A stretch of DNA of 64,000 nt from Pseudomonadota bacterium (GCA_039027675.1 JBCCJS010000001.1:93168-157167); one strand, 5' to 3'; shown: positions 8,560 through 15,611, counted from the first letter of the stretch. Program-made: numbers and translations. The notes: a model not told the origin generated them from the sequence alone.

Positions 8560-8607
8560 AAGCTTCCCCGCAAGCGAGGGTGAATGGGATTGGACAGGAG
8601 AAACACC

Positions 8608-9894
8608 TTGGCAGACAAGAACGCGACGCTCGAATTCGATGGCAAGACGCATGAATTCCCCGTCTTTTCAGGCAGCACCGGCCCAGACGTGGTCGATATC
8701 CGCAAGCTTTATGGCTCAACTGGCGCGTTTACGTTTGATCCGGGCTACAAGTCGACCGCGAGCTGCGAAAGCGCGCTGACCTATATCGATGGCAATGAGG
8801 GCGTTCTGCTCCACCGCGGCTATCCGATTGGCCAGCTGGCTGAGCATTCAAGCTTCATGGAAGTCGCCTATCTGCTGCTCAATGGTGAGCTTCCGAGCCA
8901 GGACGAGCACGACGAGTTCGTCTACACGATCACGCGCCATACCATGGTGCACGAACAGCTGCGTACGCTTTACCAGGGTTTCCGCCGCGATGCCCACCCA
9001 ATGGCGATTATGTGCGGCGTAGTGGGCGCGCTTTCAGCGTTCTACCACGACAGCACCGACATTTCCGACCCTGAGCACCGCAAGATCAGCTCACACCGCC
9101 TCATCGCCAAGATGCCGACGATTGCGGCCATGGCCTACAAGTATGCAATCGGTCAGCCCTTCATGCAGCCTGACAACTCGCTCAGCTATACGGGCAATTT
9201 CCTGCGGATGACCTTTGGCGTCCCCGCTGAGGAATATGAGGTGATCCCGGCGGTGGAAAAGGCAATGGATCGGATTTTCATCCTCCATGCTGACCACGAG
9301 CAGAACGCGTCAACCTCTACTGTGCGACTGGCAGGTTCTTCGGGCGCTAACCCGTTTGCGTGTATCGCGGCCGGCATTGCCTGCCTTTGGGGTCCCGCGC
9401 ATGGCGGAGCAAACGAGGCCGCGCTCAACATGCTGCGCGAGATCGGCACGCCCGACAAGATCCCCCACTATATCGAGCGCGCCAAGGACAAGAACGATCC
9501 GTTCCGCCTGATGGGCTTTGGCCACCGCGTCTACAAGAACTACGACCCGCGCGCGACGGTAATGCAGTCGACCGTGCGCGAAGTGTTTGAAGCGCTCAAC
9601 GTCAAGGACCCGGTGTTCGAAACCGCACTCCAGCTTGAAGAAATTGCGCTCAACGATGACTATTTCCGCGAAAAGAAGCTGTTCCCGAACGTGGACTTCT
9701 ATTCTGGCATTATCCTGTCCGCGATCGGCTTTCCGACAACAATGTTCACCGCGCTGTTTGCTCTGGCTCGCACCGTGGGCTGGGTGGCGCAGTATAACGA
9801 GATGATCGCTGATCCCGGTCAGGTAATCGGGCGTCCGCGCCAGCTATATACCGGGCCGACGCAGCGCGATTACGTGCCGCTCAGCGAGCGGTGA
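8608..9894 (+). CDS. gltA: Citrate synthase (type II)
   Basis: Motifs [24 protein letters not shown] and PNVDF. Probable TTG start after SD AGGAG. Confidence 0.97.
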
Positions 9895-9933: not shown

Positions 9934-10134
9934 ATGAAACGGCTTCTCCGGATCATTGCGGTGGCCCTTATCGTGTTCGGAACGCTGTGGGCGCTTCAGG
10001 GCCTTGGCATCCTGATGTGGCCGCCGCAAAGCTTTATGCTCGCTCAGCGCGAATGGGGCCTTTACGGCGCTATAACGGCCGGATTTGGAGTGGCTGTCCT
10101 GCTTGTTTCAGCGCGCTTTGGTCCGCCAGAGTAA
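9934..10134 (+). CDS. Small two-TM hypothetical membrane protein
   Basis: 66 aa with two hydrophobic helices around LWALQGLG...SFM...W. Fills the gap between convergent genes. Confidence 0.7.
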   Translation: MKRLLRIIAVALIVFGTLWALQGLGILMWPPQSFMLAQREWGLYGAITAGFGVAVLLVSARFGPPE

Positions 10135-10164: not shown

Positions 10165-11559
10165 TCAGGACCCGCTGTATAGCGGCAGCGTCAGACGAAA
10201 CTGCGCGCCCTCCTCTCCCGGATTGGCAATGTCGAGCATGCCATCCATCGCTTCGGCAAGGCGCGAGGAGATGTAGAGGCCAAGTCCTGAGCCTCCATCG
10301 CCTTCGCGTCCCAAACGCTCGAACTTGTTGAAGATGCGTTCCGCCTCGCCTGGCTCAATTCCAGGCCCTTCATCGCAAATGATGAGGCTAACGTTGCCCT
10401 TTCGTTCGCCAGGCAGAGCTTTAATTGTGACAACGCTATTTTCAGGCGAATAGGCGATGGCATTGCCGATCAGATTGATCAGGATCTGCAACACACGGCG
10501 ATACTCGCCCGTCGCGATATGCCGCGCCTCGGCGATAGGCGTGACAAGCTCGATGTTCTTGGCCCTCGCCCGCACCCCCAAAATGCCGCCAGCACGACGC
10601 GCAGCATCGCCAAGATCGACCGCTTCACGCTCGGTCGAGAAGTCGGGCGCTTCGACCACTTCGAGATCCGCCAGATCATCGAGCAGACCGTTAAGATGCT
10701 GGCCCGCAGATGCGATATTGCCAGCATATTCGCTGTATTCGGCCATGAGCGGTCCCGCCAGGCGCGCGCGGATGGTCTCTGCATTGGCAATGATCCGGGC
10801 GATGGGCTGCCGCAAAACAGGCGTGAGCGAGCCTTCGATAAGCTGGGCATGGCTAGGTGCCGGGTCTTGATCACCACTTTCATTCGGTACGTCAGGCAAG
10901 GGATGATCGGCCACCAAAAGGAGCTCAAATCCGCGCGGATCGCTGCCTGAAGGACCGATCGGCAAAAGCCGGGCCCGCCATCCACGTGCAGATCCGGGAA
11001 CGCGGCACTGCACGCCGTCGAGCAGACGCCAATGGATCGGCTGTTGCAGGCCCATGCCTCTTAAAGTGACGTGATCCGTCCACACACTGCCGGGCGCCTT
11101 TGCAACGCGGTCTTCCAATTGCTCAGCGTCTGCTGCCCTTGCGTTGATCAGCTGGATGCGCTGGTCTTCGTTAAGCCTCGCGGTCACCTCAGCGCATGCG
11201 CGATCAATCGCGTCGAGCCGCGCCGCCGTTTCGCGAGAACTGGGCTCTTGGATGCCGCGCGTCTGCCAATTCTCAATCAGCAATTCGCAGCCCTCACCGC
11301 TATCGGGATCGCGCGGATGAATGCGGACAAAGCCTGAGACCATCGCCTCGCCATCATACGCGGTGAATTCGCGCGCGATCTTGAGCCCCAAACGGCGGCC
11401 CTCTCGTACAAGCTCAAGGAGTTCAGGCACCGCCAGCATTCCAGGAACTGTCCCGCCGCACCGCTCTTGCAGGTCTGCCAGCGGATCGTCCGCTGAAAGC
11501 AGCACGTCGCTATCATCGGTGACCCCGCGCGAGGCCAAAAGGCTGGTTTGGCGCTCCAT
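10165..11559 (-). CDS. Histidine-kinase-like protein lacking the phosphoacceptor His (pseudokinase)
   Basis: HATPase boxes are intact: N (NLIGNAIAYS), G1 (DEGPGI), F (IFNKFER), G2 (GSGLGLYIS). The H-box reads TPVLRQP where SHELRTP is expected. ATG overlaps the upstream stop (TGATG). Confidence 0.85.
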   Translation of the reverse strand: MERQTSLLASRGVTDDSDVLLSADDPLADLQERCGGTVPGMLAVPELLELVREGRRLGLKIAREFTAYDGEAMVSGFVRIHPRDPDSGEGCELLIENWQTRGIQEPSSRETAARLDAIDRACAEVTARLNEDQRIQLINARAADAEQLEDRVAKAPGSVWTDHVTLRGMGLQQPIHWRLLDGVQCRVPGSARGWRARLLPIGPSGSDPRGFELLLVADHPLPDVPNESGDQDPAPSHAQLIEGSLTPVLRQPIARIIANAETIRARLAGPLMAEYSEYAGNIASAGQHLNGLLDDLADLEVVEAPDFSTEREAVDLGDAARRAGGILGVRARAKNIELVTPIAEARHIATGEYRRVLQILINLIGNAIAYSPENSVVTIKALPGERKGNVSLIICDEGPGIEPGEAERIFNKFERLGREGDGGSGLGLYISSRLAEAMDGMLDIANPGEEGAQFRLTLPLYSGS

Positions 11560-12530
11560 CAACGTAGCGCCACTTCAGAAGCTGCGAGGCGCGACGACTG
11601 GAGCATGGCACGCGCGCTGTGAGCCGAAAGAGCCTCCAGCCCACGCGGCAACCTCTCTGTAGGGCCTAGTGTGACAAACTGCCGCTCAACACCCTGCGCA
11701 TCGAGCCCCGCAGCGCGCAGGCCAAGCGCAAGGCGTGCAGACTGGCGATCAAAACAAGCCAATACCGCGCGCTCTCGCGATTGGTCGGAGAGCTGTGCGA
11801 GCGCGCTCGTAAACAGGGCGAGGCCTGCGTGTTCAAGTTCGAGCGCCGCAATCGCGCCTGCGCCCATGCGTGCCATCAGCCGAGCGATAAGCCCGGTGCG
11901 ACTGGCGGCCTCGTCATAATCAGCCTTGAAGCCTCTGATGGCTGCGGTCGCATCAGCTTCCTTTTCAGCCGGTGTGCCGCGCGCCCAGATGCGCAAAGCA
12001 CGCTCAAGCGTTTCGGGAGACAGATCGCTCACCGGATGCTGCATACGTCTCTGGGACTGCATGAAACGCGATTGCGCCGCGAGCGCCTGCATCGCTGTTT
12101 CCGCGGTCATCGGGTCAGAGGATGCAATCAGCTCCTGCCATAAGGGGCTAAGCACAGGATCAAGGCCAGCGCGCTGTTCCAGGCGTTCTGCCAGAATACC
12201 CTCTATCGCGGCGGAGTGCAGTGAAGCCAGCATCGGCGCATCCTGTGCAAAACGCTGGGCCAGAGTGTCGATCGGATCGGCAGCCTGCGCCTCGCCCTCA
12301 AATCCCTCTACCGGCAGGCGCGCTACAAATTGACGAGCAAGATCAATCAGCATGCCCCGCACCCGAGCCACGATCGCATCGCTCACCAATGCATCGCCGG
12401 AATTGGCGAGGATGTGACCGAGCACCGGGGCGACCGAACTTAGCGCGCGATCAGCCCGCGCGAGTTCGTCTCGAAGGACGGTCTCGACCAAAGTGTCACC
12501 AGCGCTTGTCAACGCGCAACCCTTCTCCAA
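11559..12530 (-). CDS. Hypothetical all-helical protein (possible remote DUF2336 similarity)
   Basis: 323-aa Ala/Leu-rich ORF coupled to the pseudokinase. The start may be TTG at 12512 or 12530. Family call is tentative. Confidence 0.75.
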   Translation of the reverse strand: MEKGCALTSAGDTLVETVLRDELARADRALSSVAPVLGHILANSGDALVSDAIVARVRGMLIDLARQFVARLPVEGFEGEAQAADPIDTLAQRFAQDAPMLASLHSAAIEGILAERLEQRAGLDPVLSPLWQELIASSDPMTAETAMQALAAQSRFMQSQRRMQHPVSDLSPETLERALRIWARGTPAEKEADATAAIRGFKADYDEAASRTGLIARLMARMGAGAIAALELEHAGLALFTSALAQLSDQSRERAVLACFDRQSARLALGLRAAGLDAQGVERQFVTLGPTERLPRGLEALSAHSARAMLQSSRLAASEVALR

Positions 12531-12608
12531 ATCTCGTCATCCAGCGCCGGTATACCGGGGAAAATCCCGGATCGAGGCTAGGCCAATGCTAGGCCTTAGC
12601 GCCTCATG

Positions 12609-12624
12609 GTTAAACCCGGGTTAG
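12609..12624 (-). promoter_or_regulatory. CtrA-like binding site
   Basis: Minus strand reads CTAA-cccgggt-TTAAC, one mismatch to TTAA-N7-TTAAC. Confidence 0.6.
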
Positions 12625-12669
12625 CCCAAAGCGAGCAAGGCAAACAGGCGCTTATGACAAATTTGGTAG

Positions 12670-12969
12670 TCAGCCTGAGAAGCCGGCAAGAACTGTCTCA
12701 ATTTCGCGGATAGAAGCGGGCTCACCGGGGGCGGCTTCTAGAGCGTTTTGCGCAGCGCTGACGAGGTCCTGAGCGTGAAAGCTGGCAGCCAGGCTCTGCA
12801 AGCGCATCGCCGCCATATGCCAATTCCCGTCGCAGCGTGACCGGCGCAGCAGGTCAAGTTGTTTTTCCGCGCTCTCGAGAAACGCCCCGCGCAATTCCTG
12901 CATCAGCGCCGTGTCGTCACCAGCAGCTGCTGCCAGCGTCGCATCGAGGGCTCCGTTTTCATAAGCCAT
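12670..12969 (-). CDS. HPt-fold-like protein lacking the conserved His
   Basis: 99-aa four-helix pattern (DDTALMQELRGAFLESAEKQLDLL). Motif AMRLQSLA sits where AHxLKGxA is expected. Confidence 0.75.
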   Translation of the reverse strand: MAYENGALDATLAAAAGDDTALMQELRGAFLESAEKQLDLLRRSRCDGNWHMAAMRLQSLAASFHAQDLVSAAQNALEAAPGEPASIREIETVLAGFSG

Positions 12970-12991
12970 CTTAGGGCGCTAGAACATCGAG

Positions 12992-13007
12992 GTTAAGACG
13001 GGGTTTA
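12992..13007 (-). promoter_or_regulatory. CtrA-like binding site in a divergent promoter
   Basis: Minus strand reads TAAA-ccccgtc-TTAAC, in the 68-bp gap between the HPt-like gene and the coiled-coil gene. Confidence 0.55.
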
Positions 13008-13037
13008 TCCAACGCTAGGGTGTGGTATGAAAGGGGC

Positions 13038-15611
13038 ATGTCACGAAAGAACCAGATCATCAAAGCGGTCGGCAATGAAACATCCGAAGAGACTTCGGAA
13101 ATCGCTGCCCAGACGCAATCAGAAGCCGAGCGCGACGCCGACGCCCACGATGAAGCCCACAATGAACCACCGCTGTTCGAGCTTGATGAGAACTTTGAGC
13201 ATCTAGAGCCTCACTCACCAGCTGTGGGGTGGATCGCTGCAAGCCTTGCAGTGTTGGCCATCCTCGCTTGGAGCGCGCTTTATGTCTGGGCGATGCAAGA
13301 TCAATTGCTCGCCGCCGCAAGCGCGCAGCCGGCCCAGTGGGTGCGCTGGATTATCGACTGGTCGGTGCCGGTACTCTTGATCTGCGTTGTCTGGATGCTG
13401 GCAATGCGCAATTCGACGCGCGAGGCGAGCCGATTTGCTGCCAGCGCTGCGCTTTTGAGCCAGGAAAGCGCCGAACTGGAAAACCGCCTTAGCGTTGTAA
13501 ACCGTGAGCTGAGCCTCGCGCGCGAATTTCTTGCCGCACAATCGCGTGATCTGGAGTCACTTGGGAGGCTTGCAGCTGACCGGCTGTCAACCAATGCAAA
13601 CGAATTGCAGGACTTGATCAAGACCAATGGCAAGCAGGTTGATCGCATCGGCACAGCCAGCGACACCGCTTTGGCTAACATGACGCGTTTGCGCGACGAT
13701 CTGCCAGTCATCGCCAATTCGGCTCGCGATGTAAACAATCAGGTCGGGACAACGGGGCGCACAGCGCACGAACAGCTTGAAAAACTCGTTGCCGGTTTTG
13801 AGCGGCTGAACGAATTTGGCCGCGCCAGCGAAACCCAGGTCGGCTCGTTCACCGACCGGATCGGCGAGACGATCGTCAACTTTGAAGCGCAACTATCGCG
13901 TATCGAACAGGCGCTCAGCGCGCGGTTTGAGGCGCTCCAGACGCAAGCCGCAGACTATCGCGGAACCATCACTGATTCCGAGGCCGAAGCATTGGAAGCC
14001 ATGAATACGCGCATCACTCTTTTGCAGACCGAAACCCGTGCGATCAGTGCGAGAATGCGCGATGCTGAAACCGAAGCGATTGGGCAGGCGAAGGCCTCGC
14101 GCGATCGCTGGGAGACAGAGATGGCCGAGATGGTTGAGCGGCTCAGCGCGCTCGACATGAAAGCTGCGCAAGCCTCGCGCATGCGCATCAAGGAGCTCAA
14201 CGAAGAAGCTGGCCGCTTCGATGATAAGCTCGAGCAGCGTGACGTGCGCTTCTTTGAGGAAATGGCCCGGCGCCAGGCGGACCTTGAAACGCGAGAGACC
14301 CAGGCGACCGAGATGCTGTCTCAGCGGCTTGCGGACCTCGATGATCAGATGTCGCAACGGCGCGAGGCGCAGATCGCTGAAACCGAAAAGCTCATGGCAA
14401 GCAGTGATGCAATGACGCAGCAGCTTGAGACGCTCAACGCGATGATCGGCAAGGTCAAGGAACTGGGCGCGAACACGCGCACCGGCTTGAGTGAGGGGAT
14501 GGCCGCCTTGGGCGATCAGCTGGAAGCCAAGCGCGCCTCGCTCGCCGAAACCGAAAACAGTCTTGCAGCGCTGACCGAGGCGAGCGTGCGTCTGTTAGAG
14601 ATCATCCAGTCCGGCGCCAAGCACAGCCGCGAGGACCTGCCCGCAGCGATCGACACTGCCTCCACGGCTCTGGGCAATGTCGAAGAACGCGCAGCCCGCT
14701 TGAGCGGCGCAATGTTTACGCTGGGTGAGAAGGGCGACGAGTTGTCATCATATCTGATCAAAACAAATGAGCAGATCGAGACCGCCGAAACATCGCTCGA
14801 AGCCTTGCAATCGCGCGTCGCCGAGCAATCCGATGAAGCGCTGGCGAAGCTGAATGGCCTGCGCTCCGGGCTCGAAAAACTCTCGCAAAGCAGCGCGGCG
14901 TTTGCGGGCGACACACAAGAAGCAATGCGGGAGTCTATCGGCAAGCTTGAGGAAGCGACCAAGGCCACGCTTGATACGCTGGAGGATGGGGCGACCGCAC
15001 GAGTAACAGGGCTTGCCGAAAGACTCAGCCAGGAGGCAGTAACAGCGCTCGAACGCTCGCTGCGCAATGACAGCGCAGAGGCCGTCGGCAAGATCGAACA
15101 AGCTGCCGCCCATGCCTCAGGCGTGGGCCGCGAGGCAACCGTCCAACTGCGTGATCAACTGGCACGCGTTAACGAGCTCACATCCAATCTGGAACAACGC
15201 ATTGAGCGCGCTCATGAATTGGCAGAAGAGCGTCTCGACAACGACTTCGCGCGGCGCATGGCGCTTATCACTGACAGCCTCAACTCTGCTTCGATTGACC
15301 TCAGCAACGTCCTTTCGAGCGAGGTCGCTGACACAGCTTGGGATGCGTATCTGAAAGGTGATCGCGGGATCTTCACCCGCCGTGCGGTGCGATTGCTCGA
15401 AAACAGCGAGGCGCGCGCGATTGCCGAGATGTATAAAAACGATGATGGGTTCCACGCCAACGTCAATCGCTACATCCACGATTTCGAAGCGATGCTACGC
15501 TCGATGCTCTCCACGCGCGATGGCAACGCGCTGAGTGTTACGCTTCTGGGTTCGGATATGGGCAAGCTCTATGTCGCGCTCGCGCAGAGCATTGAGCGCT
15601 TTCGCAAGTAA
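13038..15611 (+). CDS. TipN/GPR(RgsE)-like polar landmark protein: two N-terminal TMs and a long coiled coil
   Basis: Acidic N-terminus, two TM helices and about 650 aa of heptad-rich sequence. C-terminal motif AWDAYLKGDRGIFTRR...RYIHDFEAML...SDMGKLYVALA resembles, from memory, the TipN/GPR C-terminus. Confidence 0.65.
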   Translation: MSRKNQIIKAVGNETSEETSEIAAQTQSEAERDADAHDEAHNEPPLFELDENFEHLEPHSPAVGWIAASLAVLAILAWSALYVWAMQDQLLAAASAQPAQWVRWIIDWSVPVLLICVVWMLAMRNSTREASRFAASAALLSQESAELENRLSVVNRELSLAREFLAAQSRDLESLGRLAADRLSTNANELQDLIKTNGKQVDRIGTASDTALANMTRLRDDLPVIANSARDVNNQVGTTGRTAHEQLEKLVAGFERLNEFGRASETQVGSFTDRIGETIVNFEAQLSRIEQALSARFEALQTQAADYRGTITDSEAEALEAMNTRITLLQTETRAISARMRDAETEAIGQAKASRDRWETEMAEMVERLSALDMKAAQASRMRIKELNEEAGRFDDKLEQRDVRFFEEMARRQADLETRETQATEMLSQRLADLDDQMSQRREAQIAETEKLMASSDAMTQQLETLNAMIGKVKELGANTRTGLSEGMAALGDQLEAKRASLAETENSLAALTEASVRLLEIIQSGAKHSREDLPAAIDTASTALGNVEERAARLSGAMFTLGEKGDELSSYLIKTNEQIETAETSLEALQSRVAEQSDEALAKLNGLRSGLEKLSQSSAAFAGDTQEAMRESIGKLEEATKATLDTLEDGATARVTGLAERLSQEAVTALERSLRNDSAEAVGKIEQAAAHASGVGREATVQLRDQLARVNELTSNLEQRIERAHELAEERLDNDFARRMALITDSLNSASIDLSNVLSSEVADTAWDAYLKGDRGIFTRRAVRLLENSEARAIAEMYKNDDGFHANVNRYIHDFEAMLRSMLSTRDGNALSVTLLGSDMGKLYVALAQSIERFRK

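What the first reader, a model, noticed from the sequence alone, without database searches (positions are those of the whole stretch)
10165..15611. Candidate cell-polarity module: His-less kinase, His-less HPt, unknown protein and TipN/GPR-like scaffold under CtrA-like boxes
Seen: four adjacent genes between gltA and the end of the nuo superoperon. Both phosphorelay-derived proteins lack their phosphoacceptor His, and both intergenic gaps carry a CtrA-like box. Known: DivL is a precedent for a cell-cycle pseudokinase, and TipN and GPR are polar landmarks. Inference: this may be a phosphorylation-independent, protein-interaction relay assembled on a polar scaffold. I cannot tell from the sequence whether it has already been described.
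Basis: inference. Interest (0 to 1): 0.75.

Follow-up and report, generated by a model that had tools for sequence, protein, structure and literature searches.

The report
His-less signalling module beside GPR-like scaffold
This Erythrobacter-type bacterium keeps a conserved gene cluster that began as a phosphate-relay system beside a cell-pole scaffold gene, but every phosphate-carrying histidine has been lost across the whole family, so it probably now signals by protein binding.

Summary
The kinase-like protein has an intact ATP-binding domain but Pro at the phospho-His position. No homologue I read carries His there: 36 taken from genomes and 58 full-length cluster representatives from the global library. 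The 99-aa protein descends from Hpt. It has Met at the His position, and every crown-group orthologue read (34 in all) also lacks His. Positional orthologues in other families, and in Agrobacterium, are Pfam-certified Hpt proteins with His.

The 857-aa two-TM coiled-coil protein shares its C-terminal domain with the Agrobacterium growth-pole-ring protein GPR (profile E about 1e-43). This domain is single-copy in 122 of 301 alphaproteobacterial genomes. Membership of TipN is unresolved. The "unknown" 323-aa protein is probably a diverged DUF2336/SpbR-family protein.

The Hpt and GPR-family genes form a divergent pair that is ancient: Rhizobiales, Sphingomonadales and five other families. Ancestrally it came with SpbR, a receiver protein and a second Hpt.

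Both promoters carry phylogenetically footprinted CtrA-type boxes. Each is one mismatch from TTAA-N7-TTAA, and one contains TTAACCAT.

Best reading: a remodelled, His-independent, probably CtrA-timed polarity module. Binding, localisation and CtrA control are inferred, not shown. I found no description of it in the paper library.

The parts
10165..11562 (-). pHK: cytoplasmic PAS-like + PAS-like + DHp (no His; Pro248) + intact HATPase_c pseudo-histidine kinase. The likely start is ATG 11559.
   Evidence: Pfam HATPase_c 8.7e-23 and HisKA 26.4 bits. AlphaFold model with pLDDT 80: two alpha/beta PAS-like domains (10-103, 109-218), DHp hairpin 246-304, CA 313-461. N, G1, F and G2 boxes are invariant, and the acceptor position is never His.
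11559..12530 (-). 323-aa all-alpha protein, probably a diverged DUF2336/SpbR-family member. Its stop overlaps the pHK start (TGATG).
   Evidence: No Pfam or NCBIfam hit of its own. Model pLDDT 83.6, 16 helices, no PDB fold match (best E 0.15). Positional homologues in another genus are Pfam DUF2336 at 56.6 and 39.6 bits. hhalign of A2 against L270 gives E 3e-4. A broad family profile against canonical SpbR/DUF2336 gives E 1.3e-4, probability 54%.
12606..12624 (-). CtrA-type box 2, read toward the 323-aa gene: CTAACCCGGGTTTAACCAT (CTAA-N7-TTAAC, includes TTAACCAT). It is followed after 6 nt by GCTAAG (-10-like).
   Evidence: Present once, directly upstream of the 323-aa gene, in 12 of 13 loci.
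12670..12969 (-). pHPt: 99-aa Hpt-derived protein with Met55 at the phospho-His position.
   Evidence: Alignment A1. The A1 profile finds His-bearing positional orthologues at genome-wide E 2.6e-6 to 2.3e-4. Those orthologues are Pfam Hpt at 33-40 bits against a 24.6-bit cut-off, and intermediates score 16.7 bits. hhalign puts Met55 in register with the Agrobacterium His, but the match is weak (E 0.043).
12992..13007 (.). CtrA-type box 1 in the 68-bp divergent promoter. On the + strand it reads TTAAGACGGGGTTTA. Read toward pHPt it is TAAA-N7-TTAAC, followed after 9 nt by CTAGCG.
   Evidence: The block GTTAAnGCGGGGTTTA is invariant or nearly so in 13/13 loci while the flanks vary.
13038..15611 (+). 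857-aa GPR-family membrane-anchored coiled-coil protein. It has an acidic N-tail, two TM helices (about aa 59-77 and 101-119), a helical rod of about 600 aa, and a conserved C-terminal domain.
   Evidence: ORF. Start fixed by orthologues. Hydropathy. Weak SMC and Apolipoprotein hits. More than 6500 homologues, named only 'ATPase' or hypothetical.
15237..15608 (+). C-terminal domain of the scaffold (about 125 aa, ...WDAYLKGDRGIFTRR...DFEAML...SSDMGKLYVALAQ...), shared with Agrobacterium GPR.
   Evidence: Alignments A4 and A5. Found in 122/301 class-level genomes, single copy, always at the C-terminus. One hit per Agrobacterium genome at E about 1e-43, in ORFs of 2174-2319 aa. BLASTP gives 33% identity, E 7e-16.

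Best explanation
The locus is the Erythrobacter-clade form of an old alphaproteobacterial gene neighbourhood.

Ancestral state. A GPR-family scaffold (two TM helices, a long helical rod, a conserved C-terminal domain) is transcribed divergently from a small Hpt protein. With it came a DUF2336/SpbR-family protein, a 183-aa receiver protein and a second Hpt, that is, a working His-Asp relay.

Remodelling. At the base of the sphingomonad family (GTDB family f1, except one basal genus) four things happened:
- the receiver and the second Hpt were lost;
- the Hpt lost its His, and that position now drifts among M/L/Q/A/G/F/W;
- the DUF2336 gene came to lie downstream of the Hpt and diverged;
- a cytoplasmic PAS-PAS-DHp-CA kinase joined the operon. 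It has no acceptor His (the position drifts among P/R/Q/E/S/G/K/D) but fully conserved ATP-binding boxes.

Proposed mechanism. The rest of each protein is under purifying selection, so I propose they work by binding. The pseudokinase would sense a signal through its PAS domains and/or ATP and change conformation. It would pass this state to the pseudo-Hpt and the DUF2336-like protein, which would act on the membrane scaffold at a pole or division site. Both transcription units carry a conserved CtrA-type box placed over the -35 region, so the set is probably switched on together by CtrA at one stage of the cell cycle.

Shown: homologies, synteny, lineage-wide His loss, co-occurrence and promoter footprints. 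Inferred: binding relay, polar location and CtrA control.
For: Synteny:
- gltA/pHK/323-aa/pHPt<>scaffold/DUF1467 in 13+ loci.
- The same operon order, plus an extra NTP-transferase-like gene, in other genera.

His loss:
- pHK.
- pHPt.

Ancestral state:
- Pfam-certified Hpt with His, divergent from the scaffold gene, in four other lineages of the order (three families plus one basal genus of the same family), five other class-level loci and two Agrobacterium species.
- A receiver and a second Hpt beside it.
- Canonical SpbR adjacent.

Co-occurrence:
- The pHK N-domain is found in 36/38 family genomes and 0/113 others.
- It is absent from the one genus that keeps His-Hpt plus receiver.
- G000 has no orthologue of that receiver.

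Scaffold = GPR family.

Polar function of relatives:
- GPR: PMC8262873.
- SpbR: bioRxiv 10.1101/2020.06.12.148478; PMC12700997.

Promoters:
- Conserved boxes.
- Only 5 composite sites in 3.05 Mb, two of them here.
- A CtrA orthologue is present.
- Activating CtrA sites lie near -35, and the TTAACCAT variant is known (PMC6180460).
Against:
- No interaction modelling was possible; there is no multimer tool.
- The invariant ATP-binding boxes of pHK would fit a still-active kinase with a non-canonical acceptor equally well.
- Neither box is a perfect TTAA-N7-TTAA, and another regulator could bind them.
- The DUF2336 assignment of the 323-aa protein rests on weak profile scores (E 1e-4 to 3e-4) plus position.
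- Only the C-terminal domain of the scaffold is demonstrably shared with GPR. An N-terminal profile did not beat shuffled controls.
- In several genomes of another genus pHK lies far from the pHPt/scaffold pair (searches compared). Linkage is therefore not obligatory.
Confidence: 0.55

Rival explanations
1. The module is still phosphorylation-driven but non-canonical. The intact CA domain of pHK would phosphorylate another residue or protein in trans: a Ser/Thr/Tyr, or a His elsewhere, as CheA's kinase domain phosphorylates a separate Hpt-fold domain, or as GHKL Ser-kinases such as SpoIIAB do.
For: The N, G1, F and G2 boxes are invariant down to 36% identity and across the world-wide family. 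pHK is translationally coupled to the 323-aa protein, which has invariant His39 and His234 within the Erythrobacter clade. pHPt has an invariant His65 in that clade.
Against: pHPt His65 is Gly in other genera, so it is not a family-wide acceptor. The canonical acceptor positions of both proteins drift freely. The cognate receiver has been lost. No conserved alternative acceptor was identified across the family.
Confidence: 0.25
2. The genes are unrelated neighbours. The pHPt/scaffold pair and the 323-aa/pHK operon are functionally independent and sit together only through inherited gene order near gltA and the nuo tail.
For: In several genomes of another genus pHK is 200-400 kb from pHPt (coordinates). 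The two units have separate promoters. The window lacks the extra gene that most relatives carry between them.
Against: pHK occurs only in genomes whose Hpt has lost His, and is absent from the one genus that keeps His. Both units carry the same rare promoter architecture, 2 of only 5 sites in the genome. DUF2336/SpbR and Hpt are each found next to GPR-family genes in distant families. The operon order is kept in divergent genera.
Confidence: 0.12
3. The conserved promoter boxes are bound by a regulator other than CtrA (for example SciP, MucR, GcrA-type or a lineage-specific factor), so the cluster is not cell-cycle timed.
For: The 5' half-sites are imperfect (TAAA, CTAA or ATAA). The 7-nt spacer of box 1 is itself conserved (GCGGGG), which is unusual for a pure CtrA site. 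The window has no perfect consensus. The three other composite sites in the genome do not precede classic CtrA targets.
Against: TTAAC and TTAACCAT are the published CtrA half-site and ungapped variants, and activating sites lie near -35 (PMC6180460). CtrA is encoded in the genome. The Agrobacterium Hpt<>GPR intergenic region also keeps TTAA-N6-TTAACCAT.
Confidence: 0.2
4. The His-less proteins are decaying relics with no function.
For: Loss of catalytic residues. No Pfam hit for pHPt or for the 323-aa protein.
Against: Open frames are intact. pHPt shows 83% mean column identity. pHK has invariant CA boxes. The genes are retained as single copies in 36/38 family genomes and in 384 world-wide clusters.
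Confidence: 0.02

Closest known systems
GPR (Atu1348, Agrobacterium tumefaciens) / RgsE (Sinorhizobium meliloti), growth-pole-ring scaffold
   Same: Both have two N-terminal TM helices, a long cytoplasmic helical rod and a homologous C-terminal domain. The profile scores E about 1e-43 against single 2174-2319-aa ORFs in four Agrobacterium species. BLASTP gives 33% identity at E 7e-16. The Agrobacterium ORF has 12 Apolipoprotein stretches, as published for GPR (PMC8262873). In both organisms the gene is divergent from a small Hpt gene.
   Different: The window protein is 857 aa against about 2100-2300 aa. It has no above-threshold Apolipoprotein repeats (13.6 bits). Its N-terminal region is not demonstrably homologous. 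Sphingomonads are not known to grow by Rhizobiales-type unipolar elongation. The Agrobacterium Hpt neighbour keeps its His.
TipN (CC_1485, Caulobacter crescentus), new-pole landmark
   Same: Same size class (882 aa per PMC13170164), two TM helices followed by a coiled coil. The literature says GPR resembles TipN (PMC8546619).
   Different: Direct homology was not testable, because no named Caulobacter genome was reachable. The genome with the most DivJ-like kinase has an 860-aa ORF with at least one hydrophobic N-terminal helix (one TM-like stretch in my scan). Its C-terminal match is only weak (22 bits, E 1e-4).
DivL (Caulobacter and other Alphaproteobacteria), PAS-containing pseudokinase with Tyr for His
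   Same: Same PAS + DHp + CA architecture. The acceptor His is replaced. It acts by binding rather than phosphotransfer and is linked to the cell cycle. PDB 4Q20 matches at 6.6e-11.
   Different: pHK is not an orthologue. G000 has its own DivL-like gene with SYEFRNPL. The pHK position is Pro or variable, not Tyr. pHK is about 465 aa with a private N-terminal domain restricted to one family.
RetS (Pseudomonas aeruginosa), a kinase-like protein acting by DHp heterodimerisation
   Same: A kinase-fold protein whose output is protein binding. It matches pHK in the PDB at about 1.6e-12 (6DK7).
   Different: RetS keeps a His and receiver domains and is periplasm-sensing. It is unrelated in lineage and context.
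SpbR (CC2323, Caulobacter crescentus), DUF2336 protein
   Same: Canonical SpbR genes lie next to GPR-family genes in other families (488.7 bits in L163; 397 bits in L129, just under the 400-bit cut-off). The 323-aa protein is the positional, weakly similar counterpart. [quoted passage not shown]
   Different: The window protein does not reach the Pfam DUF2336 or NCBIfam SpbR thresholds. The whole genus lacks canonical SpbR.
Stand-alone Hpt proteins (Pfam PF01627; e.g. ShpA, Ypd1)
   Same: Descent and helix pattern, with the flanking 'AA-x-RLKGLAASF' motif retained in orthologues.
   Different: There is no phospho-His. In this window Lys and Gly of the motif are also replaced (RLQS). No Pfam hit.

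Membership tests
GPR/RgsE family | Conserved C-terminal domain (the C-terminus is essential in GPR) | tested here: met
   Profile A5 gives one hit per Agrobacterium genome at E 2.9e-43 to 3.4e-42, at the C-terminus of 2174-2319-aa ORFs. BLASTP of residues 740-861 against that C-terminus gives E 7e-16. That ORF carries 12 PF01442 stretches, like GPR.
GPR/RgsE family | [quoted passage not shown] | tested here: met
   Hydropathy windows at aa 59-77 and 101-119 of the 857-aa protein. The same pattern is seen in the homologues and the Agrobacterium ORFs.
GPR/RgsE family | Rod built of apolipoprotein-like (PF01442) repeats, total length about 2100 aa | tested here: not met
   PF01442 scores only 13.6 bits against a 90-bit cut-off. 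Length is 857 aa. A few close homologues have a precomputed PF01442 hit.
GPR/RgsE family | Sequence homology of the N-terminal anchor region | tested here: inconclusive
   The N-terminal profile scores no better than the best of 200 shuffled controls (9.2 bits) against the Agrobacterium ORFs.
GPR/RgsE family | Ring at the growth pole, required for rod shape | not testable with these tools
   Needs microscopy and depletion experiments.
TipN | Sequence homology to C. crescentus TipN | tested here: inconclusive
   No named Caulobacter sequence was reachable. There is a weak C-terminal match (22.4 bits, E 1.1e-4) in an 860-aa ORF (one TM-like stretch in my hydropathy scan) of the genome with the most DivJ-like kinase.
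Hpt domain (PF01627) | Phospho-accepting His in the HxxKG motif | tested here: not met
   Met55, motif MRLQS. Never His in the 34 crown-group orthologues read across the family.
Hpt domain (PF01627) | Profile match, or descent from Hpt | tested here: inconclusive
   The window protein has no Pfam hit. W/L-variant orthologues score 16.7 bits. His-bearing positional orthologues score 33-40 bits against a 24.6-bit cut-off. The A1 profile finds them at 2.6e-6 to 2.3e-4. Descent is well supported, but the protein is not a functional member.
HisKA-type histidine kinase | Acceptor His in the DHp H-box | tested here: not met
   Pro248. HisKA scores 26.4 bits against a 26.9-bit cut-off. No His in 36 homologues from genomes or in 58 global representatives.
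HisKA-type histidine kinase | ATP-binding CA domain with N, G1, F and G2 boxes | tested here: met
   HATPase_c at 81.3 bits. N363/N367, DEGPG, FxKFERLGR and GGSGLGLYIS are invariant.
DivL | Tyr at the His position; orthology to DivL | tested here: not met
   Pro at that position. A separate 785-aa DivL-like gene with SYEFRNPL lies at G000 C24:21506-23863.
DUF2336 / SpbR | Match to PF10098 or NF052659 | tested here: inconclusive
   The window protein has no hit. Positional homologues in another genus score 56.6 and 39.6 bits on PF10098. hhalign gives E 3e-4 and 1.3e-4 but only E 0.052 against a single canonical SpbR.
CtrA regulon | TTAA-N7-TTAA or TTAACCAT near -35 | tested here: inconclusive
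   Each box is one mismatch from the full site. Box 2 contains TTAACCAT. Both are conserved and lie 8-9 nt upstream of a GCTA/CTAG -10-like element. No TSS data are available.
CtrA regulon | CtrA binding and CtrA-dependent expression | not testable with these tools
   A CtrA orthologue is present. ChIP, EMSA or reporter assays are needed.

The most novel reading that the evidence does not exclude
An ancient alphaproteobacterial phosphorelay (Hpt, a receiver with an Arg-rich tail, a second Hpt, plus SpbR) is physically and functionally coupled to the GPR/TipN-type pole scaffold. Sphingomonads then converted the whole relay, in one evolutionary step, into a set of pseudo-enzymes: a His-less Hpt, a His-less but ATP-binding PAS kinase and a diverged SpbR. 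These would report cell state to the scaffold by conformational change alone. If so, the His-bearing Hpt next to gpr in Agrobacterium would be an unrecognised regulator of polar growth.
Probability: 0.3. Interest if true: 0.8.

Novelty: new variant of a known kind. Interest (0 to 1): 0.66.

Why it matters
GPR and TipN are scaffolds whose upstream regulation is largely unknown. A small Hpt gene has stayed divergently paired with GPR-family genes from Rhizobiales to Sphingomonadales. That pairing points to a signalling input to pole organisation that nobody has tested.

It can be tested directly in Agrobacterium by mutating the His of the neighbouring Hpt. It can also be tested in tractable sphingomonads by deleting the His-less module.

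The family-wide, coordinated loss of both phospho-histidines and of the receiver, with everything else retained, is a clean natural example of a two-component pathway turned into a binding-only (or non-canonical ATP-dependent) switch. It adds a second conserved pseudokinase to the alphaproteobacterial cell-cycle toolkit, beside DivL.

It also gives a context, and a candidate function, to DUF2336/SpbR-family proteins and to several thousand proteins now annotated only as "ATPase" or hypothetical.

Tried and rejected
- **Perfect CtrA box.** None in the window. The raw count of one-mismatch sites is not significant. Only conservation rescues the claim.
- **PDB sequence search with the pHPt profile.** Nothing meaningful; best E 0.58.
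- **Foldseek of the 323-aa model.** No match; best E 0.15, TM 0.13.
- **Direct hhalign.** The narrow pHPt profile against one Agrobacterium Hpt is weak (E 0.043), as is the 323-aa profile against one SpbR (E 0.052). The links hold only through intermediates and position.
- **Hoped-for Rhizobiales hit.** The 2000-aa homologue I hoped was from Rhizobiales turned out to be Dongia.
- **Route to named genomes.** Named Agrobacterium genomes were reached only indirectly, through a T-DNA border pattern. This used the last genome-contig scan, so Caulobacter and TipN could not be reached.
- **GPR paper.** PMC6561148 is not held.
- **N-terminal anchor profile against GPR.** Not above shuffled controls.
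- **Ancestral His-bearing kinase.** I searched for one next to the outgroup Hpt/receiver clusters and found none consistently.
- **Sigma-70 promoter and terminator scans.** Uninformative.
- **pHK = DivL.** Rejected, because DivL is encoded elsewhere.
- **Decay or pseudogene reading.** Rejected on conservation.

Full report
**What is in the window.** Between gltA (8584-9894, +) and the DUF1467/RNase J/coaX tail of the nuo region lie four genes.
- A 465-aa kinase-like protein, here called pHK, at 10165-11562 (-). Orthologues point to a start at ATG 11559.
- A 323-aa protein at 11559-12530 (-). Its TGA stop overlaps the pHK start.
- A 99-aa protein, here called pHPt, at 12670-12969 (-).
- A long coiled-coil protein, transcribed divergently on the + strand. 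Comparison with orthologues puts its start at ATG 13038, giving 857 aa.

A conserved 66-aa two-TM ORF (9934-10134, +) also sits between gltA and pHK. The organism is an Erythrobacter-type sphingomonad (record titles).

**The kinase-like protein.**
- Pfam finds HATPase_c (8.7e-23). HisKA scores just under its cut-off (26.4 against 26.9 bits).
- An AlphaFold model (pLDDT 80) shows two PAS-like alpha/beta domains, a DHp hairpin (246-304) and a CA domain (313-461).
- The residue aligned with the phospho-His is Pro248, five residues before the invariant Pro of 'LRQP'.
- In 16 orthologues down to 36% identity this position is P, S or A, while the N, G1, F and G2 ATP-binding boxes are invariant.
- In 20 more homologues from other genera of the family it is P, G, R, K, E, D or Q.
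- The private N-terminal domain was searched against 1.84 billion cluster representatives. It gives only 384 clusters at E ≤ 1e-3. None of the 58 full-length members carries His there.
- The domain is single-copy in 36 of 38 genomes of the family and absent from 113 genomes of the other families of the order.
- It is not DivL. The genome encodes a separate 785-aa DivL-like kinase with SYEFRNPL.

**The Hpt-like protein.**
- The window protein has no Pfam hit.
- Thirteen Erythrobacter-clade orthologues are 83% identical on average, with an invariant Met at the His position of 'AAMRLKGLAASF'.
- In 20 further genomes of the family this one position is A, M, Q, L, G or F while its flanks are kept. 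It is W in L123 and L in L124.
- In three other families of the order, in one basal genus of the same family, in five class-level loci and in two Agrobacterium species, the small gene in the same divergent position is a true Hpt. It has His (AHRLKG and the like) and scores 33-40 bits on PF01627 against a 24.6-bit cut-off.
- The W and L variants are intermediate at 16.7 bits.
The loss is ancient and family-wide, and the ancestral state was a working Hpt.

**The scaffold.**
- The last 125 or so residues form a domain found once per genome in 122 of 301 alphaproteobacterial genomes. It is always at the C-terminus of 600-2400-aa ORFs.
- I reached named Agrobacterium genomes through a T-DNA border pattern. 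There the profile hits exactly one ORF per genome (2174-2319 aa) at E about 1e-43.
- BLASTP gives 33% identity, E 7e-16.
- That ORF has N-terminal TM helices, Pro-rich ends and 12 Apolipoprotein stretches. This matches the published description of GPR (PMC8262873).
- The window protein is therefore a short member of the GPR family by its C-terminal domain and topology. It lacks the apolipoprotein rod, and its N-terminal anchor is not demonstrably homologous.
- TipN could not be tested directly. A Caulobacter-like genome has an 860-aa N-terminally hydrophobic ORF with only a weak C-terminal match.

**The 'unknown' protein.**
- It models as a confident all-alpha protein (pLDDT 83.6) with no PDB analogue.
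- Its positional homologues in another genus are Pfam DUF2336, at 56.6 and 39.6 bits.
- Profile comparisons give E 3e-4 and 1.3e-4.
- Canonical DUF2336 proteins next to the scaffold gene in other families score 488.7 bits (L163) and 397 bits (L129) on NCBIfam SpbR, whose cut-off is 400 bits.
- The window's genus has no canonical SpbR (0 of 13 genomes). All eight other families sampled have it.

**The evolutionary picture.**
- The ancestral neighbourhood, seen in L163, L164, L197 and L129-L132, is: SpbR | GPR-like <> Hpt(His), then a 183-aa receiver with a 'FVHTxxYFGPDRRR' tail, then a second Hpt.
- In the sphingomonad crown group the receiver and second Hpt are gone. G000 has no orthologue of that receiver.
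- In the same group the Hpt has lost His, and the His-less kinase appears.
- The one genus that keeps His-Hpt plus receiver lacks the kinase.
- Most relatives also carry an NTP-transferase-like membrane gene inside the operon. This genome has lost it.

**Promoters.**
- The window has no perfect TTAA-N7-TTAA, and one-mismatch sites are not enriched.
- However, the site in the 68-bp divergent region belongs to a block (GTTAAnGCGGGGTTTA) that is invariant or nearly so in 13 of 13 loci whose proteins are only 50-80% identical.
- It is also the only such pattern in each ~15-kb locus that contains the promoter.
- Read toward pHPt, this site is TAAA-N7-TTAAC, then 9 nt, then CTAG.
- The second site, NTAA-N7-TTAAC (TTAACCAT in the window and six of the other loci) followed by 5-7 nt and GCTA in most loci, lies directly upstream of the 323-aa gene in 12 of 13 loci. 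This holds even where the extra gene intervenes.
- This composite architecture occurs five times in the 3.05-Mb genome, and two of those sites are here.
- Published work describes TTAACCAT as the ungapped CtrA variant and places activating sites near -35 (PMC6180460).
- A CtrA orthologue is present (the query sequence was recalled from memory, and the hit is 77% identical over 231 aa).
- The Agrobacterium Hpt<>GPR intergenic region keeps TTAA-N6-TTAACCAT.
- CtrA control is therefore plausible but unproven.

**Mechanism and confidence.**
- I am confident (about 0.85) of the identities and of the evolutionary remodelling.
- I give about 0.5 to the functional model: a His-independent binding relay, PAS/ATP-gated, acting on a pole or division-site scaffold and co-expressed under CtrA.
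- The main rival is that the intact ATP site serves a non-canonical phosphorylation.
No multimer modelling was available.

**Novelty.**
- The paper library holds nothing that links Hpt proteins to GPR/RgsE.
- It holds only two unrelated papers that mention DUF2336, and nothing on TipN in Sphingomonadales.
- Earlier agents of this scan described the same cluster in other sphingomonads. I used those notes as leads and re-derived the claims here.
- I class it as a new variant of known kinds: pseudokinase signalling of the DivL type, and the GPR-family scaffold.

Noticed in passing
window 9934-10134 (+): A 66-aa two-TM ORF (MKRLLRIIAVAL...) lies between gltA and pHK, convergent with pHK. It is conserved at 49-87% identity in six related loci, so it is probably a real small membrane protein gene.
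   Followed up: partly
L005 4794-5975; L012 4836-6008; L125-L128; L270 5280-6458: Most relatives carry a ~390-aa gene between pHPt and the DUF2336-like gene. Its N-terminus is MobA-like NTP-transferase (PF12804, E 2.4e-4, tested in L005 only) and its C-terminus looks hydrophobic (by eye, L005/L012 only). The L270 ORF is placed here by position and size only; its sole Pfam hit was a weak VMAP-M18 match. The gene is missing from the window, and tblastn finds no match anywhere in the genome.
   Followed up: partly
G000 C24:21506-23863: A DivL-like 785-aa kinase with Tyr in place of the acceptor His (SYEFRNPL). The genome therefore has two different His-less kinases.
   Followed up: partly
L163, L164, L197, L130-L132 (other alphaproteobacterial families): A conserved 183-187-aa receiver protein (203 aa as the longest ORF in L130) with a C-terminal tail 'FVHTxxYFGPDRRR...TD.S..VEI..G' lies beside the Hpt<>GPR-like pair. 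In L163, L164 and L197 a second Hpt-like protein (IAHDMKGQGGTFGY) follows it. NCBIfam has no specific name for either.
   Followed up: partly
L228 9800-10177; L229 9061-9429 (Agrobacterium larrymoorei, A. burrii): A 122-125-aa Hpt with His is transcribed divergently from the GPR orthologue. The intergenic region conserves TTAA-N6-TTAACCAT. No paper in the library links this gene to GPR.
   Followed up: partly
G000 C1:197953 (+), C15:15792 (+), C8:13273 (-): These are the three other genomic copies of the promoter architecture YAAA-N7-TTAAC-N8-9-GCTA. They lie upstream of an 88-aa ORF, a 102-aa lipoprotein-like ORF and a 331-aa polysaccharide-deacetylase-like ORF. They may form a small regulon with the module.
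   Followed up: partly
genus of the window (13 genomes) against 8 other families of the order: Canonical SpbR (NF052659) and all detectable DUF2336 paralogues are absent from the genus. Every other family sampled has one SpbR above the cut-off plus 2-6 paralogues.
   Followed up: partly
L175 and relatives (Dongia): Dongia species carry members of the same scaffold family that are about 1900-2000 aa long. Giant forms are therefore not confined to Rhizobiales.
   Followed up: no
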